The notes beneath the pieces were generated by a model. The model saw only the letters and a program-made list of their open reading frames with translations. It did not search any database and was not told where the DNA came from. A stretch of 48,723 nucleotides of DNA, from positions 1 to 48,723 of IMG/VR virus record IMGVR_UViG_3300021255_000132, one strand, 5' to 3'. Of the stretch, positions 1-48,723 are shown piece by piece. The first letter of the stretch is position 1. Every line of letters begins with the position of its first letter. The translations under genes were made by a program, and so were the position numbers. The stretch is from a virus.

Positions 1-107
1 TATCATCATTTTATTTATTCTCCTAACCTTCTTTCTTTCACGCCTTAGAAACGTCTCATATTTCTTCCCCAGCAAGCCAATAGCTTTTACTTGCATTCCC
101 CACCTGT
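1..107. repeat. Terminal overlap copy 1 (identical to 48617-48723)
   Basis: Read directly: tatcatcattttatttattctcc...ttgcattccccacctgt occurs at both ends of the window. Confidence 0.95.
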
Positions 108-11016: not shown

Positions 11017-11784
11017 TTATTCCTCCACCATCTTGACCAGTTCAGCCACAAATGCTTTATAATCTTTTGCGGCTCCACACCGTGGTGAATGTACCATTAT
11101 CGGCTCGGCCGTAAACGTTGATTCATCAACTTTATCCGTCCAACGGATGAAGTTATCGAATGTCTTGTATTTTTCAGCCTGCCGCATCCACTCAGCGCCC
11201 TGTTGATTACTGTCATTTCTACGGTAACTCGTGATGAGCGTGCCAAGGAAGTTGAGCTGATGATTGAAGTAGGTTTTAACTGTCTGCATTTGGTTGAGTA
11301 AGCTGTCAATTCCATCGAATGTCCAGCGGTCGATTTTTGCAGGGATAACCAGATAATCCGATGTTGTCAGCGCATTTATGACGCACATGCCAAGACTCGG
11401 AGCGTTGTCTATGATCACGTAGTCGTATTCATCTTTGACCTGGTGCAGCACCTCTTTGAGCCGTACCTGCTGCGGCACCGTTGGGTCTGTCAGTACAGCT
11501 TTTTCAGCTTCCGCCAGTGATAGATTCGCGGCAATAATGTCGATATTCGGCTGAGTTGTGTGCTGGATAACCTGCTCAGCCGTCGCGGTACGTTTGAGTA
11601 CCTCGGTCATGCTGGGCTTGTCGTATCCGTACACGCCGAAGAACTGACTGGTGTTTCCCTGCTGGTCATTATCTACCACCAGTGTGCGCTTTTCATACTC
11701 CGTTGCCAGCACATATGCCGTGTTGATAGTGGTCACGGTCTTGCCCACTCCGCCCTTCAAATTTGCAATCGTTAATACTTTCAT
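11017..11784 (-). CDS. parA: ParA/Soj-family partition ATPase
   Basis: Deviant Walker A at the N-terminus, MKVLTIANLKGGVGKTVTT. Later motifs VIIDNAPSLG and DYLVIPAKIDRW also fit. Confidence 0.9.
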   Translation of the reverse strand: MKVLTIANLKGGVGKTVTTINTAYVLATEYEKRTLVVDNDQQGNTSQFFGVYGYDKPSMTEVLKRTATAEQVIQHTTQPNIDIIAANLSLAEAEKAVLTDPTVPQQVRLKEVLHQVKDEYDYVIIDNAPSLGMCVINALTTSDYLVIPAKIDRWTFDGIDSLLNQMQTVKTYFNHQLNFLGTLITSYRRNDSNQQGAEWMRQAEKYKTFDNFIRWTDKVDESTFTAEPIMVHSPRCGAAKDYKAFVAELVKMVEE

Positions 11785-11821
11785 CGTCTTATTCCTCCTC
11801 AGATTGTCGATGCTACGAGTT

Positions 11822-12382
11822 TTACATAATCAGCATGCTGAACGGATTGTTTTCCGCCTTGCTGACCTGTTGATTTTTGTATTCCAGAAACCGGACTACG
11901 GTATCTGCTTTGATTTCATATGAGGCTAAGTCTTCTGCACTGGCGTATTTATGGCCGTAGCGTTCTTTCATTTCCCGCCATACCTTCCACGGCACCATGA
12001 AATAACTAAGTTCCCAACCTGTACCGATGGCACAACAGACAAACGCTGCCGCCCCTGCCTTGTGGTATCGTTCCAGCATGGCGGCCTGCGTGGGTGTTAC
12101 CGCCGCCTGCTTGATTGCGTCCTTCTGCGTATACTTGGCTTCGAACGCTATTAGCCGCCCGCCTTTAATGCAGCCAATGAAATCAGGCTGCGCTTTCTGG
12201 GTGAACTGCACTTCTGCCCTGGCCCTTGCTCGGTCTAAATTCTTCACGACACGGAACGGCTCGCTTTCCTTGTGCAGTACCAGCTTGCCTTCCTGTTCGT
12301 ACTGCCGCGCCGCCGCCATAATCATTTCTTCGAGAATGCGGCCCTGAGCGTTGTTTACCCGGCTTACGTTGCTTCGGTTCAT
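11822..12382 (-). CDS. RecU-like Holliday junction resolvase (186 aa)
   Basis: RILEEMI...Y...G...KAQPDFIGCIKGGRLIAFEAKYT...TQAAMLERYHKAGAAAFV matches the RecU pattern Dy.G...G..i.FEaK...Q...L...GG.aF as I recall it. Confidence 0.55.
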   Translation of the reverse strand: MNRSNVSRVNNAQGRILEEMIMAAARQYEQEGKLVLHKESEPFRVVKNLDRARARAEVQFTQKAQPDFIGCIKGGRLIAFEAKYTQKDAIKQAAVTPTQAAMLERYHKAGAAAFVCCAIGTGWELSYFMVPWKVWREMKERYGHKYASAEDLASYEIKADTVVRFLEYKNQQVSKAENNPFSMLIM

Positions 12383-12386
12383 CAAA

Positions 12387-12635
12387 TCAGTTCTTCCCTC
12401 CCAGTTTTCTCTGCTTGCATTTCCGAATCAGGAAGGTTCTCCCTGTTCCATGCTTGGCATAGCACCGGAAATAATAGTCAGTCACTTTGATGGACTTGCC
12501 ACACAACCATGGCATACATCCAGCCCATTCACCCATATCACTGCACCACGCAGCATTAAGACATTCATAGCAGCATACCTGCCGCCCTTTTCTTTGGGTC
12601 TTGCACACATTCCCACGGCAATAGTATTTAGTCAC
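12387..12635 (-). CDS. Small Cys-rich protein (82 aa)
   Basis: GTG start with a GTGA overlap on the rep stop and GGGAGG upstream. It contains 9 Cys. Confidence 0.45.
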   Translation of the reverse strand: MTKYYCRGNVCKTQRKGRQVCCYECLNAAWCSDMGEWAGCMPWLCGKSIKVTDYYFRCYAKHGTGRTFLIRKCKQRKLGGKN

Positions 12636-13477
12636 AGGTTTGACCTCCCTTGTGGATTTTGTGGATAATCATCATCACGCTCAAATACTGCATGCTGATA
12701 GTCAAAGTTATCATCCGTATTACCGCTGTAGCTTAATGGCCATACGACGTGATAGCCTTTCGGTGCCTTAATCTCTTTCCGGAAGGAACCCCTCGGCACC
12801 AGTGTCTTGACTTCTTTTGTGCGGACAAGGTTCAGACTGGTGCAAATGCGGCTCCGTTTTGCTTTCAGCTCTGCATCCAGCGCCTTGGTATTGCCGCCCG
12901 CCCGTTTGACCTGCATTTTCTCATTGAGCGTGCTGATTAATGTTTCTTCTTTTGTCATGTAGGCCGCTACTTTCCTGGCGTCCATCGTCCGGGCTTCGTA
13001 CGGCTTGAAGTATGTGTTTCCTAACGCCCATGCATTCGATAAGGCTCTTTTCATCTTCCCAAAATCCACTCCTGGGATTGACGGGAGAAGAATGTGCCCG
13101 TGCAATCGTCCGCGCCCTTCCAAGTTCTCCTGCACAGCGATGTACTTAATGTCCATGCCATGCTCCTCATAGAACTTTCTAAGGCTTCGAATCATCTTCC
13201 CGTATGCTTTCTTGAACTCTGCCACAGATACTTTTTCTGCTAGTGTAAATGCTATCCACCAGTCACCTTCCTTGAAATTGTCCATAATCAGACGTTGGAA
13301 TCTTTCCGTCCGGTGTCTCAGGTTTATTTTCTCCTGCTGCTCGCTAGTAATCTTTCTCTTTGGTCTGCGTCTCTCTCTCGCTGACTCATTTTTGGGCATT
13401 GCTCTCACTGAATGGTACTTGTCCACTACAATAAAACGTTTGTCGTGAGATACCCATTTTTTCTGCATATAAGCCAT
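12632..13477 (-). CDS. HUH-superfamily rolling-circle replication initiator (Rep)-like protein (281 aa)
   Basis: The three RCR motifs appear in order: WWIAFTLA (motif 1), GRLHGHILLP (the HUH motif) and KVAAYMTKEE (catalytic Tyr). ATG with a GGAGAA RBS. Confidence 0.6.
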   Translation of the reverse strand: MAYMQKKWVSHDKRFIVVDKYHSVRAMPKNESARERRRPKRKITSEQQEKINLRHRTERFQRLIMDNFKEGDWWIAFTLAEKVSVAEFKKAYGKMIRSLRKFYEEHGMDIKYIAVQENLEGRGRLHGHILLPSIPGVDFGKMKRALSNAWALGNTYFKPYEARTMDARKVAAYMTKEETLISTLNEKMQVKRAGGNTKALDAELKAKRSRICTSLNLVRTKEVKTLVPRGSFRKEIKAPKGYHVVWPLSYSGNTDDNFDYQHAVFERDDDYPQNPQGRSNL

Positions 13478-14470: not shown

Positions 14471-14983
14471 ATGACAATAGGTGAACGTATCAAAGCCGCC
14501 CGCAAGTGCATGGGCATGACGCAGGCTGACTTTGCAGAACGCATTGGCCTTAAGCCGACAGCTGTTCTCATGTACGAAAAAGGCTCTCGAAATGTGACAG
14601 AGCAAAGCATTGCGCTTATCGTGCAGGCGTATAATATAAATGAGGAATGGCTACGTTCTGGCCACGGTGCTATGTTTCAAGAATGCGATGATGCAATCAT
14701 TAGCCAATTAGCAGAACAATATAAGCTTGGCGGCGAGCAAGTTGCTTTAATTAAGAGTTTTCTTTCTCTCACCGACTCACAACGTGATGCCGTTGTAGCT
14801 GCCGTTTGCAACGCTGCAGATGCAGTCAGCGCCGCCCGCAAAGTTGCAGCTGAAAAAGAAAAATCTCAGCGCGAGGAAGCTCATCAGCTTCTCGACATGG
14901 AGCTTGACGCTCAGGAAAAAGGGCAATCAGCCTCCACCTTTGGAAGCTCCGGCACCAGCGTTAACAACGAACAAAATGCATAA
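14471..14983 (+). CDS. XRE-family HTH repressor (cI-like), 170 aa
   Basis: N-terminal HTH: IGERIKAARKCMGMTQADFAERIGLKPTAVLMYEKGSRNVT. AGGAGG RBS. It is transcribed divergently from the early operon. Confidence 0.85.
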   Translation: MTIGERIKAARKCMGMTQADFAERIGLKPTAVLMYEKGSRNVTEQSIALIVQAYNINEEWLRSGHGAMFQECDDAIISQLAEQYKLGGEQVALIKSFLSLTDSQRDAVVAAVCNAADAVSAARKVAAEKEKSQREEAHQLLDMELDAQEKGQSASTFGSSGTSVNNEQNA

Positions 14984-15042
14984 AAAGGCCGCCCTGTTAT
15001 CAAGGCGGCCCTCTTACTATATATATTTTATGCTGCAGAAAA

Positions 15043-15076
15043 GGCCACCTGCTCTTCAACAGCAAGCGGCCTTTTT
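15043..15076 (+). terminator. Terminator after the repressor gene
   Basis: ggccacctgct / agcaagcggcc forms 9 of 11 pairs with a 7-nt loop, followed by ttttt. A run of A precedes the stem. Confidence 0.55.
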
Positions 15077-15190
15077 CTGGATTGTAAGGATATTTTTCGA
15101 AAGGTAATCTGGGGAATTACCTGCCTGATGTTAGAATAAGGCCCCAGCTATCACGCTGGGGTCTTACCTCGTAACACCAAAGCCTTATAG

Positions 15191-15236
15191 GCATGTGGAG
15201 AAACAGCCTATGTTTATTATATATCGCTCCACATGC
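15191..15236. promoter_or_regulatory. 10-bp inverted repeat gcatgtggag-N26-ctccacatgc upstream of the integrase gene
   Basis: Read directly. It ends 39 nt before the integrase ATG and the region between the arms is AT-rich. Confidence 0.4.
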
Positions 15237-15274
15237 TTTGTCTCACAATCAAACATTTTATGGAGGATTTTATA

Positions 15275-16681
15275 ATGACAAAAACAGTAAAACGTGCTGC
15301 CCTTTATATCCGTGTAAGCACCGACGAGCAGGCGCGATACGGATTATCACTTGGAGAACAGCGCCGCGACCTTGAAGATTACGCGCGTCGCAAAGGATAT
15401 ATTGTTGCCGGCATCTATGCTGACGAAGGCACATCCGCCCGCAAGTCCCTGCATCGCAGGAAAGAATTGCAGCGCCTGCTTGCCGATATCCGTGCCGGCA
15501 AGATTGATGTCGTTGTTGTTAAAGACTTGGAACGCTGGATGCGCTCCGTCCGTGACTTTTATAAAGTACAAGACATTCTCGATGAGCATAATGTCGGCTG
15601 GGAGTGTTCCCAGGACAGGTACAACACCACCACTGCCAATGGGAAGATGCAGCTGAATATGCGTCTGGCCATCGCACAGGACGAATCGGATCGGGACAGT
15701 GAGCGCATCCGTTACGTGTTCGAGGGCAAGAGAAAACGCAAAGAAGTCCTGTCTGGCGCAATTCCCAGGGGAATGTCTATTGTCGATAAGCATATCGTAT
15801 TTAACGAAGAAGCTGATATGGTGCGGGCCATATTCAATCATGTCTATAATGGCGGTTCCGTCCGTTCCTGTATCGCTTTGGCCAAAGAAGAATACGGCGT
15901 TGAATTGACTTATAGAACCATTCGCCGTTCGCTTGCCAATCGTGCATATATCGGGGAGCTCCACGGCGAACCAGGCTACATTGAGTCAATGATTCCCCTG
16001 GATGTGTTCAACAGAGTCCAGATTAAGTTGAAAAAATACTGCTCTTCTTTCCGGAACAAATCCACTGGTAGCCGTGTTTATCTTTTTACCGGATTGATTT
16101 CCTGCCCACATTGCGGCTCCACCCTCAGCGGTTATCGTGGGGATAAAAAAGCGGACGGCACTTATCGCACTTACTGGTATCGTTGTGGTCGTGCCAATGG
16201 CAACGCCGGCGTTGGCTGCAATTATACCCGGTGCTTGTACGAGCGGAAAGTGGAATCATTCCTTCTCGATAACATCCAGTCGCTACTATCCAATCACATG
16301 TATCAAATCGAGCAACGCCGCATTGCAAAGCAAAAATTCCGCTCTGAAATGACCGAAGAAAATATCCAGGCAAAGCTGGCGCGCTTGAAAGATTTGTATG
16401 TTGACGGGCTTATCGATAAACCGACGTACCTGCGCGACTATAATAAGTTTCAGCAGCAACTCCTTGAAATAGCTTCTGATGAGGTCATCCCTCTTACCAC
16501 AATTCCGCCCGAAGCCCAAAGCTTTGTTTCATCAGCTGACTTCCGTGAAGTATATCAATCCCTCACGCAGGAAAACAAGCGTGACTTTTGGGCATCCATT
16601 ATCAAACGGATTACATACGAAGATACCCCCGCAACTCATGGCCGTGGGGGTGTATATGACTTCCATGTTGAGTTTTATTAA
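15275..16681 (+). CDS. Large serine recombinase (phage integrase), 468 aa
   Basis: The resolvase-type catalytic domain is present: AALYIRVSTDEQ...GLSLGEQ. A C-terminal zinc-ribbon region follows (CPHCGSTLSGYRG...YWYRCGR...GC), then a coiled coil. ATG at 15275 lies 7 nt after GGAGGA. Confidence 0.9.
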   Translation: MTKTVKRAALYIRVSTDEQARYGLSLGEQRRDLEDYARRKGYIVAGIYADEGTSARKSLHRRKELQRLLADIRAGKIDVVVVKDLERWMRSVRDFYKVQDILDEHNVGWECSQDRYNTTTANGKMQLNMRLAIAQDESDRDSERIRYVFEGKRKRKEVLSGAIPRGMSIVDKHIVFNEEADMVRAIFNHVYNGGSVRSCIALAKEEYGVELTYRTIRRSLANRAYIGELHGEPGYIESMIPLDVFNRVQIKLKKYCSSFRNKSTGSRVYLFTGLISCPHCGSTLSGYRGDKKADGTYRTYWYRCGRANGNAGVGCNYTRCLYERKVESFLLDNIQSLLSNHMYQIEQRRIAKQKFRSEMTEENIQAKLARLKDLYVDGLIDKPTYLRDYNKFQQQLLEIASDEVIPLTTIPPEAQSFVSSADFREVYQSLTQENKRDFWASIIKRITYEDTPATHGRGGVYDFHVEFY

Positions 16682-16760
16682 GCATGCCTTTTATACCACC
16701 CGTAAAATGTCATGCCCTTTAGGTGATGTCAAATTACTGGTGGTAATACTTCCATCCCTG
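16682..16760. other. Probable attP region
   Basis: It lies immediately 3' of the integrase gene and coincides with the point where the radical-SAM homology breaks (around 16745). It contains attac-tggtg-gtaat dyad symmetry at 16733-16747. Confidence 0.45.
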
Positions 16761-16861
16761 TTCGGGCACGTGACTGGCAATGCAATCGGTAGCTTATATA
16801 CCTTTTCGCCATACCTTTCCTTTAGATAATCAGAAAATACTCGATACACTTGATGCTCCAT
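16691..16861 (-). pseudogene. 5' fragment of a TIGR01212-family radical SAM gene (host-derived)
   Basis: MEHQVYRVFSDYLKERYGEKVYKLPIALPVTCPNRDGSI matches the conserved N-terminus of YhcC/YtqA-type proteins (...L.e.yG.KV.K....g..CPNRDGtiG.GGC.FC). The match breaks off before the Cys-rich SAM cluster and reads into ...TTSNLTSPKGHDILRVV*. Confidence 0.65.
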
Positions 16862-16872
16862 TATTATTCCTT

Positions 16873-17052
16873 TCACGCATTCAATGCCCTATCCATCGCT
16901 GCCAGCACCCATGCTCTGAATGGCATGCCAGCTTTTTCCGCTGCCTGCTTGTAGCGTTCAAGCTCTGGCTTTGGTAGCTTGATACTGATTTGACCGAGTG
17001 ACCGCTGGTATTTTAGCGCAGCACGTTTCTGCGCGTCTGTCATCTTCGCCAT
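16873..17052 (-). CDS. Ribbon-helix-helix (CopG/Arc-like) protein, 59 aa
   Basis: Hand-translated as MAKMTDAQKRAALKYQRSLGQISIKLPKPELERYKQAAEKAGMPFRAWVLAAMDRALNA. GGAGG RBS. The pattern fits a beta strand followed by two helices. Confidence 0.55.
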   Translation of the reverse strand: MAKMTDAQKRAALKYQRSLGQISIKLPKPELERYKQAAEKAGMPFRAWVLAAMDRALNA

Positions 17053-17068
17053 TTTGTGCCTCCTTTTT

Positions 17069-17446
17069 TTACATCAATTTTTTTATAAATCCTCCGGTTT
17101 CTGGTTGCTGAATCTTTTCCTTATGTCTTAGGATTTTCGCTGTACCGTATTCAGCAACGTAGCCAAAAAAGAACTTTTCGCTAATGATATCTTCATCACG
17201 CACAGCTACGTAAATAGTCAGGGTATCTTGCTTGGAGTAATCCTGCGACTTAATGACAGCGCGGCCTTCGACTTTTCTGGCACCCCAATCAACAAGTTCA
17301 TCGTCCAGCGGTACAGGAATTTCATCGTATAGTTTTAGGTTGCCGAGCCAGTAAAAAGTCTTGAACTTTTTGCCCTGCCGTATTTTTACTGCATTGTCGG
17401 GGCTTCTGTTGACAAGATATTTCTTGCCTTCAAATTCAATTAACAT
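17069..17446 (-). CDS. Hypothetical protein (125 aa), cassette gene 3
   Basis: ATG with a GGAGGG RBS. No motif recognised. Confidence 0.6.
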   Translation of the reverse strand: MLIEFEGKKYLVNRSPDNAVKIRQGKKFKTFYWLGNLKLYDEIPVPLDDELVDWGARKVEGRAVIKSQDYSKQDTLTIYVAVRDEDIISEKFFFGYVAEYGTAKILRHKEKIQQPETGGFIKKLM

Positions 17447-17461
17447 TTTAATTCCCTCCTA

Positions 17462-17827
17462 TTATTTGATACAATCACATACTGCTTTAATGGCTTTGTC
17501 AATATCCCCGCCGTCCTGGTGGAAAATCGCTGCTAATTCGCGATGTGCATTGTCCTCTTTAGCTCTGAAATCATCAAATTCGGCTGGTGTCGGATTATCA
17601 TCGAGATATAAATCGGTGATACAGAACATATACATTTCTACATCACGATATGCGGCACTTGCAATTCTCTCTGCTTTATTTTCTGCCTCACGGCGTTCTT
17701 TTTCCTCGTCACTCTCGAAAGCCTCAATGTCAAAGCAATTTGGAGCTTGCGCTTGTATTTGCCGATACTCGCGGGATTTCTTGTCCAGTCTTTTAAGCAA
17801 CATTTTCAAGTAAGCCATCTTTTTCAT
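17462..17827 (-). CDS. Hypothetical acidic / helical protein (121 aa), cassette gene 2
   Basis: ATG at 17827 lies 8 nt after AGGAGG. Confidence 0.6.
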   Translation of the reverse strand: MKKMAYLKMLLKRLDKKSREYRQIQAQAPNCFDIEAFESDEEKERREAENKAERIASAAYRDVEMYMFCITDLYLDDNPTPAEFDDFRAKEDNAHRELAAIFHQDGGDIDKAIKAVCDCIK

Positions 17828-17840
17828 TTTGAAAACCTCC

Positions 17841-18143
17841 TTAAAATTTACCACAGTTCACATAATTTTCGGCGAGATATAAGATTCTGCCGGAGCTAAA
17901 TTTTTCGCGGTGGGTAATGATTACGCCTGCTTGGTCAATCTTTGCTAAAACGTTATTTTCGAGCTGGCTGATGATTTTGTCGAAGGCTTCTTCCCATTTG
18001 TCTGCGTGCGGCCACTGCTTATCGTGTGCACGCTTGATATTGTTGTTTGCTGTGGTGTATACGCAAGCTATGATGTCCGTTGCCCATTTAATTTGCTTAT
18101 CACTGCCCTGCAAATTCAGTTTTGGCATTTCCCACGTTCTCAT
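17841..18143 (-). CDS. Hypothetical protein (100 aa), cassette gene 1
   Basis: ATG with an AAGGGGG RBS, about 38 nt downstream of the predicted transcription start of the consensus promoter. Confidence 0.6.
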   Translation of the reverse strand: MRTWEMPKLNLQGSDKQIKWATDIIACVYTTANNNIKRAHDKQWPHADKWEEAFDKIISQLENNVLAKIDQAGVIITHREKFSSGRILYLAENYVNCGKF

Positions 18144-18187: not shown

Positions 18188-18216
18188 ATTATATAGCTAT
18201 CTATATATTTTGTCAA
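18188..18216 (-). promoter_or_regulatory. Perfect sigma70 consensus promoter TTGACA-17-TATAAT
   Basis: On the minus strand: TTGACA (18216-18211), the 17-nt spacer aaatatatagatagcta, and TATAAT (18193-18188). It is flanked by the repeats atagctaKctatatatttt. Confidence 0.75.
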
Positions 18217-18299: not shown

Positions 18300-18340
18300 A
18301 GGCCCGTACCGGCGCTATGCCAGTACGGGCCTGTTTTTAT
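18300..18340. terminator. Bidirectional rho-independent terminator ending the lysis operon
   Basis: A 10-bp stem aggcccgtac / gtacgggcct, with a T-tract on the plus strand (gtttttattt) and on the minus strand (ttatttttgt). Confidence 0.75.
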
Positions 18341-20262: not shown

Positions 20263-20571
20263 CTAGAATGTTCCGTGCACTATCCAAATAACACCTTCAC
20301 CAATGACCACACCGCCGACGTCAGCCGCCAGGTCTCCCAAATGGTCATGCGTAGCATGTCCCTTGTTATGGTCATAAATTTCCTTAGCCACAAATAAGCC
20401 GCCTAATATGCTCCAGCGCGTTTCCTTTTTCACTCCACATTCAGCCATAGCCAAGTCAAGGCCCGTCGCAACGCCGATGTGCTTTTGCTTATCCGGCGCT
20501 ATTTCCGCATAGCAAAAAGACGGTATCATCATCGATATCGCCATCAGTGCCGCTATTAACTTTTTGTTCAT
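20263..20571 (-). CDS. Secreted or membrane-anchored small protein with a signal peptide (102 aa)
   Basis: MNKKLIAALMAISMMIPSFCYAEI... Its start lies 83 nt inside the 3' end of the RT ORF. Confidence 0.5.
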   Translation of the reverse strand: MNKKLIAALMAISMMIPSFCYAEIAPDKQKHIGVATGLDLAMAECGVKKETRWSILGGLFVAKEIYDHNKGHATHDHLGDLAADVGGVVIGEGVIWIVHGTF

Positions 20572-21655
20572 CTCCCGTCACCCCCTTTCTTTGCAAGCAA
20601 ATTGAGCTCAGGAGCTTTGTCCTGAGCCTATAACTATCGCAGTGTCGCATTTGCCCATTGTATGACGCATAGGTTTTCATGAAGTCCTCCACATTGGCTT
20701 TACCTCTGGCGAATCTTTTTACTATGCCCTTTAGCCTATGCTTCATCTTTAATGCAGTTTTCTTTCTGAGCAATATGTGGTCCCTCCAGATGCGGAAACC
20801 ACAAAAGTCAACTCCCTGCGTTTCTGTCCGTATTGATGTTTTGTTGTTGAGGAGCAAAGCCCGCTCATTGAGCAGGAAGTCATACATAGCATCACGACAT
20901 TCAGCTAAATATTTTTTATCTGTGCTGACAATCGTAATATCATCCATGTACCGCAGATAATACTTTGCTCCCAGTTCGTGCTTAGCAAACTTGTCTGCAC
21001 CGTCAAGATAAAAGTTTGCCAGCATCTGTGATGACAGGTTGCCGATTGGCATACCAACATCATGCAGTCTTTCACCGCAATAATCGTGGTCTCCAATATT
21101 AATTCCGAAATCGTGCTCACTGTTCACTATTATGCCCAGCAGCCACAATAGTTCTTCGTCTTTTATGGTCTGACTGAGCAAATCCATCATTATTGCATGG
21201 TTCACGCGGTAAAAATACTTTGAGATGTCCATTTTGAGTATATACGCCTTGCCAGGCTGTGCCCTTATATACTCCTGCAGTTTGGCTACTGCACTATGAG
21301 GCCCGCCCTTTATTGGTGCGCACTTCATACGGCAGCCAAAGCTGGTATTTATATAGCGTTTCTCTAACAAGGGATTCAGCTGGCGGTAAACCGCCCATTG
21401 AATAATCCTGTCCCTAAATGGCAGCGCCATTATCAAACGCTTCTTCGGATCGTGTACAAAGAATTCTCGATATCGCCCCACTTTATAAGTATGCCAAATC
21501 AGTTCATTCTGTAATTCAATAAGGTTTTCATCCAGATTGGCCGAAAACTCCATAACTTCCGTTCGATATCTTTTGCCCTTTCTGGCTTCCAGATATGACG
21601 CATAAAGGTTTTCGTAATCATAGATTTTCTCAAAGATGTTTCCTATTCGTTTCAA
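20489..21655 (-). CDS. DGR-type reverse transcriptase (388 aa, apparent TTG start)
   Basis: RT motifs are present, including the DGR hallmark PIGNLSSQMLANFYL and the catalytic YMDD (YLRYMDDITIV). The gene lies 226 nt downstream of the TR. Confidence 0.9.
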   Translation of the reverse strand: MKRIGNIFEKIYDYENLYASYLEARKGKRYRTEVMEFSANLDENLIELQNELIWHTYKVGRYREFFVHDPKKRLIMALPFRDRIIQWAVYRQLNPLLEKRYINTSFGCRMKCAPIKGGPHSAVAKLQEYIRAQPGKAYILKMDISKYFYRVNHAIMMDLLSQTIKDEELLWLLGIIVNSEHDFGINIGDHDYCGERLHDVGMPIGNLSSQMLANFYLDGADKFAKHELGAKYYLRYMDDITIVSTDKKYLAECRDAMYDFLLNERALLLNNKTSIRTETQGVDFCGFRIWRDHILLRKKTALKMKHRLKGIVKRFARGKANVEDFMKTYASYNGQMRHCDSYRLRTKLLSSICLQRKGVTGDEQKVNSGTDGDIDDDTVFLLCGNSAG

Positions 21656-21881
21656 TGTATGTTTCTTCCTTACATGTTACATATAAGCCACAATAAATTA
21701 ATCAATCACTGTCACGTTTTTCGCCCGCCTACTCTTTCAAGGAACGCTACTAACCGCGATGCAGTCCTTTTTTGTTTTTGAGACGGTGTATCTTCCCCAC
21801 CGCCTATGGATACATGCTCCTTATTCTTCATGTAACTGGATGCGCTCCCGTAAGATACGCAACTTCTGACAAAATGAAGAT

Positions 21882-21997
21882 TAAGCCACGCGCCCGCCCA
21901 CGTTGTTGTTCGAATTCGAGCGAACATTATTCAGGTTCAAGGCGAAAACGCCCGCGTTGGCACCATTGTTCCAATTGCCGCCGGATAACGGAACGCG
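21882..21997 (-). repeat. DGR template repeat (TR), 116 bp
   Basis: 102 of 116 positions are identical to 22492-22607. It lies in a non-coding stretch between avd and the RT gene and carries 11 AAY triplets in the VR reading frame. Confidence 0.9.
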
Positions 21998-22023
21998 AAT
22001 TTAGCATGTCCCCAAAGTAACCA

Positions 22024-22398
22024 TTATTTTCTGTTGTTTGTCATCATCCTGCCTATTATTCGCCCACATTCATCAGCACATTTTGATGTAATCTCATATC
22101 GCTTAAAGGCCATATACTTGAATTCAACTCCCAGCCGTAAATACTGCCGCAACGTGTCCAGTTTAATATCTGCTTCTTCTAGTGAAGTTTTCTTGATATG
22201 CTTGTCCTTTATCCTGATTACCAGCTCCATAAAATCATTAAAGATTTTCTTAGTATCTGCAGCAAGTCCGTATTTCTCAGATTTTGGATACTGCCTCAAG
22301 CTAATATATAGTTCTTTCATCAGGTCATGAGTTCTTTCCAACAGGTAAAATGGCACCTTACTTGCTGTTAAATGATTCAGGACGGTCTCTTGTTCCAT
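22024..22398 (-). CDS. avd: Accessory variability determinant (Avd)-like four-helix-bundle protein (124 aa)
   Basis: Its size, basic helical sequence (LYISLRQYPKSEKYGLAADTKK...) and position between VR and TR all fit Avd. Confidence 0.75.
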   Translation of the reverse strand: MEQETVLNHLTASKVPFYLLERTHDLMKELYISLRQYPKSEKYGLAADTKKIFNDFMELVIRIKDKHIKKTSLEEADIKLDTLRQYLRLGVEFKYMAFKRYEITSKCADECGRIIGRMMTNNRK

Positions 22399-48511: not shown

Positions 48512-48712
48512 TTATATAGATACTTCATTAATCATTTTCAGCGCTTCATCAGCATTACATCCAAATAATTTCATTGCGAGCCGATCAGCCTCCTCCTCAG
48601 TCAATGGTCTAGGCACTATCATCATTTTATTTATTCTCCTAACCTTCTTTCTTTCACGCCTTAGAAACGTCTCATATTTCTTCCCCAGCAAGCCAATAGC
48701 TTTTACTTGCAT
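48512..48712 (-). CDS. Hypothetical small protein (66 aa); the ORF stays open across the circular junction
   Basis: The frame stays open upstream into the sequence equivalent to positions 97-190. An alternative ATG lies at the equivalent of position 114, after GGAGGA. Confidence 0.45.
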   Translation of the reverse strand: MQVKAIGLLGKKYETFLRRERKKVRRINKMMIVPRPLTEEEADRLAMKLFGCNADEALKMINEVSI

Positions 48713-48723
48713 TCCCCACCTGT
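48617..48723. repeat. Terminal overlap copy 2 (identical to 1-107)
   Basis: Read directly. This is most simply the end overlap of a circular assembly. Confidence 0.95.

What the first reader, a model, noticed from the sequence alone, without database searches (positions are those of the whole stretch)
16682..16876. Phage carries a 5' fragment of a host TIGR01212-type radical SAM gene next to the serine integrase: probable attP and target-gene reconstitution
Ten bases after the integrase stop, on the opposite strand, an ORF begins MEHQVYRVFSDYLKERYGEKVYKLPIALPVTCPNRDGSI. This is the conserved N-terminus of the YhcC/YtqA (TIGR01212) radical SAM family.

The similarity breaks off just before the expected G.GGC.FC iron-sulfur motif and runs into unrelated sequence and a stop codon. 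The break point (around 16745) lies in a small dyad, attac-tggtg-gtaat.

The simplest reading is that the phage integrates inside the 5' part of the host radical SAM gene and supplies a replacement N-terminus with its own RBS, so the gene is not inactivated.
Basis: partly seen in the sequence, partly recalled or inferred. Interest (0 to 1): 0.65.

Follow-up and report, generated by a model that had tools for sequence, protein, structure and literature searches.

The report
Phage attP inside a borrowed gene start
A gut/rumen Selenomonas-type phage inserts into the start of the host tRNA-modification gene mnmL and rebuilds it with its own promoter and N-terminus, adding 14 extra in-frame amino acids that also persist, in one or two copies, in phage-free strains.

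Summary
ORF 16691-16861(-) carries the first 38 codons of an MnmL/YtqA (TIGR01212) radical SAM gene, 9 nt from the stop of a large serine integrase.

1. The crossover is not at the 16733-16747 dyad. It is the dinucleotide 16719-16720 (AA on the gene strand). This is the centre of a 52-bp imperfect inverted repeat, 16694-16745, which is the best such repeat in the whole window.
2. Rebuilding is not seamless. The P arm is translated in frame, so the rebuilt gene gains 14 residues (NRDGSITTSNLTSP) between the first and second Fe-S cysteines.

A lysogen contig holds both junctions about 45.5 kb apart. attL is the host 5' end joined to the P' arm and integrase. attR is the phage 5' end plus 42 nt plus the host 3' end, an intact 333-aa ORF.

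At the same prophage-free locus in the same species, alleles with 0, 1 or 2 copies of the 42-nt unit coexist. One-copy alleles differ from each other almost only synonymously.

This is a new variant of a known kind. How the footprints form, and whether the enzyme stays active, are inferred rather than shown.

The parts
15275..16681 (+). Large serine integrase, 468 aa (the longest ORF starts at 15233)
   Evidence: Pfam Resolvase 1.4e-29, Zn_ribbon_recom 1.1e-09, Recombinase 5e-4. NCBIfam XisF/CcrB-like. PDB catalytic-domain match to TP901-1 integrase, 4e-16. Gene callers give 468 aa in identical contigs.
16694..16745 (.). attP: 52-bp imperfect inverted repeat, TACCACCCGTAAAATGTCATGCCCT-TT-AGGTGATGTCAAATTACTGGTGGTA
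   Evidence: 19 of 25 symmetric positions; unique best centre in the window, next best 16 of 25. Homology to attL stops at 16723 and homology to attR starts at 16719.
16719..16720 (.). Crossover dinucleotide (TT on the + strand, AA on the gene strand)
   Evidence: attP CCT-AA-AGG; attB CCG-AA-TAG; attL CCG-AA-AGG; attR CCT-AA-TAG. The flanking bases differ on both sides, so exchange is confined to AA.
16694..16718 (-). P' arm; supplies the unrelated tail KGHDILRVV* of the fragment ORF
   Evidence: Follows the host 5' end in attL of L134-L136 with identical sequence, and in L001-L005 with a related one.
16721..16745 (-). P arm, translated in frame as part of ...SITTSNLTSP
   Evidence: Retained at attR and in the footprint alleles.
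16719..16760 (-). 42-nt unit (CAGGGATGGAAGTATTACCACCAGTAATTTGACATCACCTAA) that ends up inside the host gene as NRDGSITTSNLTSP
   Evidence: Present once at attR (L124, L127, L128), at least 3 times in L123, once in L019, L021 and L100-L103, and twice in L099.
16761..16762 (.). Site-1 AA: centre of the phage-borne copy of the host attB left arm plus about 10 nt of the right arm (pseudo-attB)
   Evidence: Gene strand GTCACGTGCCCG-AA-CAGGGATGG, against host GTTACGTGCCCG-AA-TAGAGATGG. Footprint alleles switch from host to phage sequence exactly here.
16748..16861 (-). Phage copy of mnmL codons 1-38 (MEHQVYRVFSDYLKERYGEKVYKLPIALPVTCPNRDG), with RBS GAAAGGAATAATA upstream
   Evidence: TIGR01212 N-terminal match. 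95.5% identical DNA forms the 5' end of the rebuilt gene in L124.
16691..16861 (-). Whole 56-codon fragment ORF as it stands in the free phage
16873..18143 (-). Four small co-oriented genes (100, 130, 125 and 59 aa; the last is CopG-like) between the promoter and the fragment
   Evidence: Absent from the L124 prophage, where the promoter sits directly upstream of the gene.
18188..18216 (-). Promoter-like site TTGACA-17-TATAAT (12 of 12) reading towards the fragment
   Evidence: The equivalent TTCAAA-18-TATAAT lies 43 nt upstream of the rebuilt gene in lysogen L124.
18300..18332 (-). Terminator-like hairpin (14-bp stem) insulating that promoter from the lysis genes
   Evidence: Conserved in L124.

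Best explanation
**What the window is.** It is a complete, circularly assembled temperate phage of about 48.6 kb that infects Selenomonadaceae or other Selenomonadales.

**Integration.** Its large serine integrase recombines attP (16694-16745, crossover at 16719-16720) with an attB inside host mnmL. The host exchange point is the AA that spans the Pro-Asn codons of the motif CPNRDG, one residue after the first Fe-S cysteine.

**Why an insertion results (inferred).** A serine-integrase attP arm cannot have the same sequence as the host attB arm. The phage therefore carries the gene's first 38 codons, then its P arm in the same reading frame.

**Products of integration.**
- attL is a dead 42-49-codon host stub fused to the P' arm.
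- attR is a full-length mnmL made of the phage promoter, RBS and N-terminus, then 14 extra residues (NRDGSITTSNLTSP), then the host remainder.

**Shown:** site, crossover, both junctions, intact ORF, and promoter-like signals.

**Inferred:**
- The rebuilt enzyme works.
- The 42-nt units left in prophage-free alleles (1 or 2 copies), and the arrays of at least 3 units at attR, arise because the phage-borne copy of the attB left arm and core can itself be used by the integrase.
For: **Fragment and integrase:**

**attP:** unique 19-of-25 inverted repeat centred at 16719-16720.

**attL:**
- L001-L005 run host SMC, FtsY, PEPCK and a B12 radical SAM gene, then a 49-aa stub, then a convergent integrase and phage genes 76-91% identical to the window.
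- The window segment 16724-16760 is missing from attL.
- L134-L136 show a second host with a P' arm identical to the window's.

**attR on the same contig as attL:**
- L124 encodes a 333-aa gene hit by Radical_SAM and Radical_SAM_C. Its sequence reads MEHQVYRTF...VTCPNRDGSITTSNLTSP|NRDGFCGNGNNGC.
- GH25, the DGR RT and Avd, and a Mu gp48 homologue lie upstream.
- Homology to the window begins exactly at 16719.

**Empty attB in the same species and synteny:** L104-L111.

**Free attP form:** eight contigs, plus the terminal overlap 1-107 = 48617-48723.

**Expression signals:**

**Tolerance of the insert:**
- One-copy alleles differ by 7/0, 7/1 and 8/1 synonymous/non-synonymous codons.
- An AF2 model of a one-copy allele keeps the fold (pLDDT 84.5, pTM 0.86), with residues 43-65 predicted as a low-confidence loop.

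**The insert is foreign:**
- Only 3 of 78 species representatives deviate from the 12- or 14-residue Cys spacing.
- The 55 nt around the unit are 54-55/55 identical to the window in two species whose flanking 5' DNA is only about 81-85% identical.
Against: - No enzyme assay exists. The insertion sits between cluster-binding cysteines, and the equivalent first Cys (C33) is essential in E. coli YhcC (bioRxiv 10.64898/2026.05.18.725915). Activity could therefore be impaired.
- The exact window phage was seen only in the free attP form. The lysogens are relatives whose integrases are 93-95.5% identical.
- No recombination directionality factor was identified.
- The integrase route to footprints needs a reaction on a pseudo-attB that is not established for this enzyme family.
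- The zero-unit phage that such a reaction predicts was not seen among the 59 fragment homologues.
Confidence: 0.85

Rival explanations
1. Footprints arise by ordinary homologous recombination between the host 5' copy at attL and the phage 5' copy at attR. This deletes the prophage and leaves the 42-nt unit. The integrase plays no part, and tandem copies come from slippage or unequal crossing-over.
For: - The prophage is flanked by direct repeats of about 100 nt.
- The two-copy allele L099 carries two upstream SNPs, one of them phage-like (GCCAGT), which hints at a conversion tract.
- L133 looks like an element joined through the shared unit.
Against: - The repeats are only about 81% identical, and the longest shared runs are 8-11 nt.
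- All five one-copy alleles are host-type up to the base before site-1 AA (CCCG).
- They are phage-type (CAGGGACGG) immediately after it.
- Phages carrying that unit variant have CCCT before the AA.
- The switch therefore falls on the integrase crossover dinucleotide rather than at scattered positions.
Confidence: 0.35
2. The 14-residue segment is native to some host mnmL genes, and the phage simply captured a 5' fragment from such a host. On this view nothing is inserted on integration.
For: In the listed part of the HGM14095-like species cluster, insert-bearing alleles outnumber insert-free ones.
Against: - The same species has insert-free alleles in identical synteny.
- The attL stubs lack the segment.
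- In the S. ruminis group the native motif is NRIGECG, and the inserted alleles read NRDGSITTSNLTSP+NRIGECG.
- The unit is nearly identical across species whose flanks have diverged.
- 75 of 78 species lack any such insert.
Confidence: 0.03
3. The fragment is a functionless relic of imprecise excision. Integration inactivates mnmL, which is dispensable, and the intact attR ORF is an accident.
For: - Enzyme activity is untested.
- The AF2 loop is disordered.
- MnmL is not essential in B. subtilis or S. mutans (bioRxiv 10.1101/2023.12.21.572861).
Against: - The unit is exactly 42 nt and in frame in every copy number: 326, 340 and 354 aa, and 333 aa at attR.
- A start codon, RBS and promoter-like site are conserved in two phage lineages with different upstream cargo.
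- Substitutions among insert-bearing alleles are strongly biased towards synonymous changes.
Confidence: 0.12

Closest known systems
SPbeta/SprA in spsM, skin in sigK, and other gene-intervening elements with large serine recombinases (PMC5499854, PMC5025042, PMC5595907)
   Same: A large serine recombinase with its attB inside a protein-coding gene, attP next to the integrase gene, and conservative exchange at a 2-bp core.
   Different: Those elements split the gene, and it is restored only by excision. Here the element brings its own 5' gene copy, so an intact ORF exists while the prophage is integrated.
Tyrosine-integrase phages that duplicate the end of their target (tRNA 3' ends; e14 and phage 21 at icd). 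From my own knowledge.
   Same: The phage carries a replacement copy of the part of the gene it displaces, so the target stays intact in the lysogen.
   Different: - In those phages the replacement abuts a shared core, so rebuilding is seamless and involves the 3' end.
- Here the 5' end, promoter and start codon are replaced.
- A serine-integrase P arm has to be translated, which adds 14 residues.
SCCmec CcrAB integration at the 3' end of rlmH/orfX. From my own knowledge; the integrase shows NCBIfam similarity to CcrA, CcrB and CcrC.
   Same: A serine recombinase that integrates within an ORF yet keeps it open.
   Different: That case affects only the last codons at the 3' end, with no duplicated gene fragment and no repeat units left behind.
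Integration-dependent immunity in mycobacteriophages, where attP lies inside a phage ORF. From my own knowledge.
   Same: attP is embedded in a reading frame, so integration changes what protein is made.
   Different: There the ORF is the phage repressor, and integration truncates it. Here the ORF is a host-gene fragment, and integration completes it.

Membership tests
TIGR01212 MnmL/YtqA/YhcC radical SAM | Whole-protein score above the curated cut-off (180 bits) | tested here: not met
   The window ORF scores 38.9 bits and covers profile positions 2-36 of 302 only. It is a fragment, not a member gene.
TIGR01212 MnmL/YtqA/YhcC radical SAM | Conserved N-terminal block FSDYLK.RYGEKVYKLP..LP.TCPNRDG | tested here: met
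   identical or nearly identical to Selenomonadaceae MnmL N-termini.
TIGR01212 MnmL/YtqA/YhcC radical SAM | Complete Cys motif C-x11/13-C-x2-C plus Radical_SAM and Radical_SAM_C domains | tested here: met
   Not met by the window ORF alone, which has the first Cys only. Met by the rebuilt attR gene in L124: 333 aa, hit by PF04055 and PF16199, with spacing stretched to 28.
Large serine recombinase (phage serine integrase) | N-terminal resolvase catalytic domain with the serine motif | tested here: met
   PF00239 1.4e-29. Sequence AALYIRVSTDEQ read. TP901-1 integrase catalytic domain 4e-16.
Large serine recombinase (phage serine integrase) | C-terminal recombinase domain and zinc ribbon | tested here: met
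   PF13408 at 38.9 bits against a 25.3 cut-off. PF07508 at 20.7 against 21.1, which is borderline.
Large serine recombinase (phage serine integrase) | Conservative exchange at a non-palindromic central dinucleotide, with attP and attB otherwise dissimilar | tested here: met
   The four sites compared share only CCN-AA, and the exchange is confined to AA.
Large serine recombinase (phage serine integrase) | attP of about 50 bp with imperfect dyad symmetry, next to int | tested here: met
   16694-16745, 19 of 25 symmetric, unique in the window, 13 nt from the int stop.
Large serine recombinase (phage serine integrase) | Catalytic activity and dependence on a directionality factor for excision | not testable with these tools
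   No directionality factor identified; this needs biochemistry.
Target-rebuilding temperate phage | Both junctions of one prophage flank the target, with an intact ORF at one of them | tested here: met
   L003 and L124 are one contig, with junctions about 45.5 kb apart on the same strand.
Target-rebuilding temperate phage | The rebuilt gene product is active | not testable with these tools
   Indirect only: synonymous bias, in-frame units, and an AF2 fold that is retained.

The most novel reading that the evidence does not exclude
The phage-borne copy of the attB left arm and core (site 1, 16761-16762) is a working integrase substrate.

If so, rounds of integration, excision or phage-phage recombination would move whole 42-nt units between phage and host. 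Host mnmL alleles would then carry 0, 1, 2 or more in-frame 14-residue modules in the Fe-S cluster loop.

That would be a natural, countable scar of past lysogeny written into a working enzyme. It would also be a route by which a site-specific recombinase lengthens a protein loop.
Probability: 0.4. Interest if true: 0.8.

Novelty: new variant of a known kind. Interest (0 to 1): 0.62.

Why it matters
**A serine-integrase phage that spares its target.** This phage targets a coding sequence without disrupting its reading frame, and the data suggest how. Serine-integrase attP and attB arms have to differ, so the attP arm is read through as protein.

**A ready-made test set.** The work provides mapped attP, attB, attL and attR sequences for a new integrase. 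These can be tested directly and may be useful as a recombination tool.

**Prophage scars in healthy genes.** Site-specific integration appears to leave precise in-frame scars in genes that still look functional. Those scars are polymorphic within one gut species. This matters for reading strain-level variation, for annotating MnmL proteins with odd cysteine spacing, and for tracing past lysogeny in metagenomes.

**A probe of the enzyme.** The alleles offer natural insertion mutants in the cluster-binding loop of MnmL/YhcC, whose function was assigned only recently.

Tried and rejected
- **Phage records.** Megablast of 15200-17100 against 50,697 phage records found no match.
- **IMG/VR.** An exact P-arm pattern found no match.
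- **Neighbouring 125-aa protein, JGI metagenomes.** The scan gave one unrelated phage contig, L112.
- **Neighbouring 125-aa protein, homologue search.** Its relatives sit in unrelated phages, including a 254-kb contig, so it does not lead to attR.
- **Direct look-up of a host neighbour gene.** attR was reached instead through cluster members of the host cupin gene.
- **Fragment homologue search.** It returned only short proteins. Three of them (P0010, P0012, P0013) look, from my own knowledge, like assembly chimeras ending in translated sequencing adapter.
The crossover at the 16745 dyad was rejected, as was a junction at the 15.2-kb inverted repeats. The repeats I1 (14975-15083) and I2 (15191-15236) lie beside a variable cargo slot inside prophage homology.
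- **Own promoter.** No promoter lies immediately upstream of the fragment in the window. The nearest one is at 18188-18216.

Full report
**1. Observation**

The minus-strand ORF 16691..16876 reads MKGIIMEHQVYRVFSDYLKERYGEKVYKLPIALPVTCPNRDGSITTSNLTSPKGHDILRVV. It lies 9 nt beyond the stop (16681) of a convergent 468-482-aa gene.

That gene has Resolvase, Recombinase and Zn_ribbon_recom domains. It also has an XisF/Ccr-like NCBIfam profile, and its catalytic domain is related to TP901-1 integrase. It is a large serine integrase.

Residues 11-45 of the short ORF match positions 2-36 of TIGR01212 (MnmL/YtqA) at E = 5.4e-10. The score is far below the full-length cut-off. This is a real N-terminal fragment carrying only the first of the three cluster cysteines.

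MnmL/YtqA/YhcC is a radical SAM enzyme that converts cmnm5s2U to nm5s2U in tRNA (bioRxiv 10.1101/2023.12.21.572861; 10.64898/2026.05.18.725915).

**2. The window is a free phage**

- Bases 1-107 repeat at 48617-48723, which marks a circular assembly.
- An ENA contig of 48,671 bp is 100% identical over the 11.6 kb compared.
- All eight contigs shown that carry the exact neighbouring 59-aa protein have the same fragment-integrase arrangement.
- The phage collection and IMG/VR hold nothing similar.

**3. Where the site is**

I scanned every position of the window for 25+2+25 dyad symmetry. One outlier emerged: 16694-16745, TACCACCCGTAAAATGTCATGCCCT-TT-AGGTGATGTCAAATTACTGGTGGTA. It has 19 of 25 symmetric positions, against 16 of 25 for the next four centres.

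**4. attL**

Proteins related to the fragment fall into two classes.
- Class A matches the window: ...VTCPNRDGSITTSNLTSPKG....
- Class B lacks 14 residues: ...VTCP|KGHDILRVV and ...VTCP|KGYDNLRVV.

Class B protein P0032 sits in long gut-metagenome contigs (L001-L003). The order there is host SMC, FtsY, L28, PEPCK and a B12 radical SAM gene, then the 49-aa stub, then a convergent 468-aa serine integrase. Repressor, Rep, RecU and ParAB genes follow.

The prophage DNA is 76-91% identical to window 16723 down to about 4476. The integrase is 93% identical to the window's.

The host 5' end aligns to window 16846-16761 and the phage side to 16723 onward. So 16724-16760 is absent from attL.

Class B protein P0008 gives the same junction in a Selenomonas ruminantium-like host. 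Its P' arm is identical to the window's, and its integrase is 95.5% identical.

**5. attB and the predicted attR sequence**

A scan of species-representative genomes places the closest N-termini in Selenomonadaceae and other Selenomonadales.

Two representatives have full-length mnmL with an in-frame 14-residue insert:
- Selenomonadales bacterium HGM14095 (L019);
- Selenomonas ruminis (L021).

Their sequence reads ...VTCPNRDGSITTSNLTSP|NRDGFCG... and ...TSP|NRIGECG... respectively. There is no phage upstream.

The 55 nt ACGTGCCCGAACAGGGAyGGAAGTATTACCACCAGTAATTTGACATCACCTAA are 54-55/55 identical to the window. The adjoining 5' DNA is host-type and much more diverged.

Among the 78 species representatives in which the gene was located, only these two and one other (L026, a different insert) depart from the usual 12- or 14-residue spacing between the first and second cysteines.

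**6. attR in a lysogen**

Cluster members of a host cupin gene led to L124, which is the same 175,379-bp record as attL locus L003.

About 45.5 kb downstream of attL, on the same strand, lies a 333-aa gene hit by Radical_SAM and Radical_SAM_C. It reads MEHQVYRTFSDYLKERYGEKVYKLPIALPVTCPNRDGSITTSNLTSPNRDGFCGNGNNGCTFCG.... Phage genes precede it: GH25 lysozyme, the DGR reverse transcriptase and Avd, and a Mu gp48-like protein.

Homology to the window runs from 16872 to exactly 16719 at 95.5% identity.

The four sites read as follows:

| Site | Sequence at the core |
|---|---|
| attP | CACCT-AA-AGGG |
| attB | GCCCG-AA-TAGA |
| attL | GCCCG-AA-AGGA |
| attR | CACCT-AA-TAGA |

The bases on both sides of AA differ between the partners. 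The exchange is therefore confined to that dinucleotide, as expected for a serine recombinase.

**7. How it most likely works**

- The phage carries mnmL codons 1-38. This stretch includes a copy of the attB left arm, the AA, and about 10 nt of the right arm.
- The P arm follows in the same frame. The P' arm then supplies the meaningless tail and the stop.
- Integration gives a dead host stub at attL.
- At attR it gives a complete gene: phage N-terminus, then NRDGSITTSNLTSP, then the host remainder.
- In the window, a terminator-like hairpin (18300-18332) and a perfect TTGACA-17-TATAAT (18188-18216) precede four small genes and the fragment, all on the minus strand.
- In L124 the same hairpin and a TTCAAA-18-TATAAT lie directly upstream of the rebuilt gene.
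- I infer that the in-frame P arm is the price of rebuilding a gene with a serine integrase, because the attP arm cannot have the attB sequence.

**8. Footprints**

In one species, at the same syntenic locus and with host genes on both sides, three allele lengths coexist.
- 326 aa, no unit: L104-L111.
- 340 aa, one unit: L019, L100-L103.
- 354 aa, two tandem units: L099.

The attR of lysogen L123 has at least three units and a scaffold gap. The S. ruminis group likewise has 321-aa native alleles (NRIGECG) and 335-aa alleles.

One-copy alleles are host-type up to CCCG-AA and phage-type (CAGGGACGG) from the next base. Phages with that unit variant (L017, L124) have CCCT-AA. This places the switch on the site-1 dinucleotide. 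It suggests integrase action on the phage-borne pseudo-attB rather than scattered homologous exchange between repeats that are about 81% identical.

This remains inference, for three reasons:
- a donor phage with CCCG cannot be excluded;
- L099 shows a possible conversion tract;
- no zero-unit phage was seen.

**9. Is the rebuilt gene functional?**

This was not tested. Four observations favour function.
- Every copy number is in frame.
- One-copy alleles have diverged by 7/0, 7/1 and 8/1 synonymous/non-synonymous codons.
- The lysogen, one-copy and two-copy alleles are closer to one another than to the zero-copy alleles. This suggests the scar has been inherited for some time.
- An AF2 model of a one-copy allele keeps a confident fold (pLDDT 84.5, pTM 0.86), with residues 43-65 as a low-confidence loop.

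One observation counts against it. The insert lies between cluster cysteines, and the first of these is essential in E. coli YhcC (10.64898/2026.05.18.725915).

**10. Comparison and novelty**

Gene-intervening serine-recombinase elements such as SPbeta, skin, gin and yin restore their target only on excision (PMC5499854, PMC5025042, PMC5595907, PMC10747680).

Rebuilding a target from a phage-borne duplicate is classic for tyrosine integrases at 3' ends (my own knowledge).

Three full-text searches found no report of any of the following:
- a serine-integrase phage that rebuilds the 5' end of its target through a translated attP arm;
- integration into mnmL/ytqA;
- in-frame unit scars of this kind.

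I rate this a new variant of a known kind. The footprint dynamics are the most novel element and the least proven.

Noticed in passing
window 1-107 and 48617-48723: A terminal direct overlap of 107 nt shows the window is a circular assembly of about 48.6 kb. An ENA contig of 48,671 bp is 100% identical over the 11.6 kb compared.
   Followed up: yes
window about 20489-22398 (-): A diversity-generating retroelement: a reverse transcriptase (RVT_1) and an Avd accessory protein. They were mapped from gene calls on the identical contig L011. The L124 prophage also has them.
   Followed up: partly
L006-L010 (e.g. L006:8420-8620): An mnmL 5' fragment plus P arm ends exactly at the crossover AA. Unrelated DNA follows (RBS and yvrJ, then a hydantoinase), in a host-like context with no integrase and no rest of mnmL. 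It looks like an attR-type junction at a secondary site, or an integrase-mediated rearrangement.
   Followed up: partly
L133:4519-4807: Here the host 5' end and one 42-nt unit are joined at the second AA to a different, P'-like arm (AGGTTGCATGTCAGGCAACCT) and a different convergent gene. Another element appears to have joined a footprint allele at site 2.
   Followed up: partly
L123 (attR, about 11441-12700, minus strand): The attR of this lysogen has at least three tandem 42-nt units, interrupted by a scaffold gap of Ns. Short-read assembly evidently fails on the array.
   Followed up: partly
P0070-P0072, L026:2302 onward; P0123 and relatives (Anaerovibrio): These are other in-frame insertions around the same cysteine loop. 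One set reads NRDGSIASRGFALSGHEAACGG..., with Cys spacing of 25-32. Anaerovibrio has a 12-residue insert just before TCPNRDG. They may be scars of other elements or native variation.
   Followed up: no
window 15023-15175 versus L001:11660-12714 and L003: A variable cargo slot lies between the integrase and the repressor. It is 153 bp in the window. L001 has a 1,055-bp segment there with a PH_gly_zipper/SHOCT gene, and L003 adds an IS (rve). The inverted repeats at 14975-15083 and 15191-15236 flank this slot.
   Followed up: partly
window 17069-17446 (-): This 125-aa protein of unknown function has 83-92% identical relatives in unrelated phage contexts. One is a 254-kb contig that carries Csf (type IV CRISPR-like) genes (L113).
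   Followed up: partly
window 16873-17052 (-): This 59-aa protein shows weak CopG-antitoxin/LmbU-like similarity. It overlaps the alternative GTG start of the fragment ORF and would be co-transcribed with the rebuilt mnmL in a lysogen.
   Followed up: no
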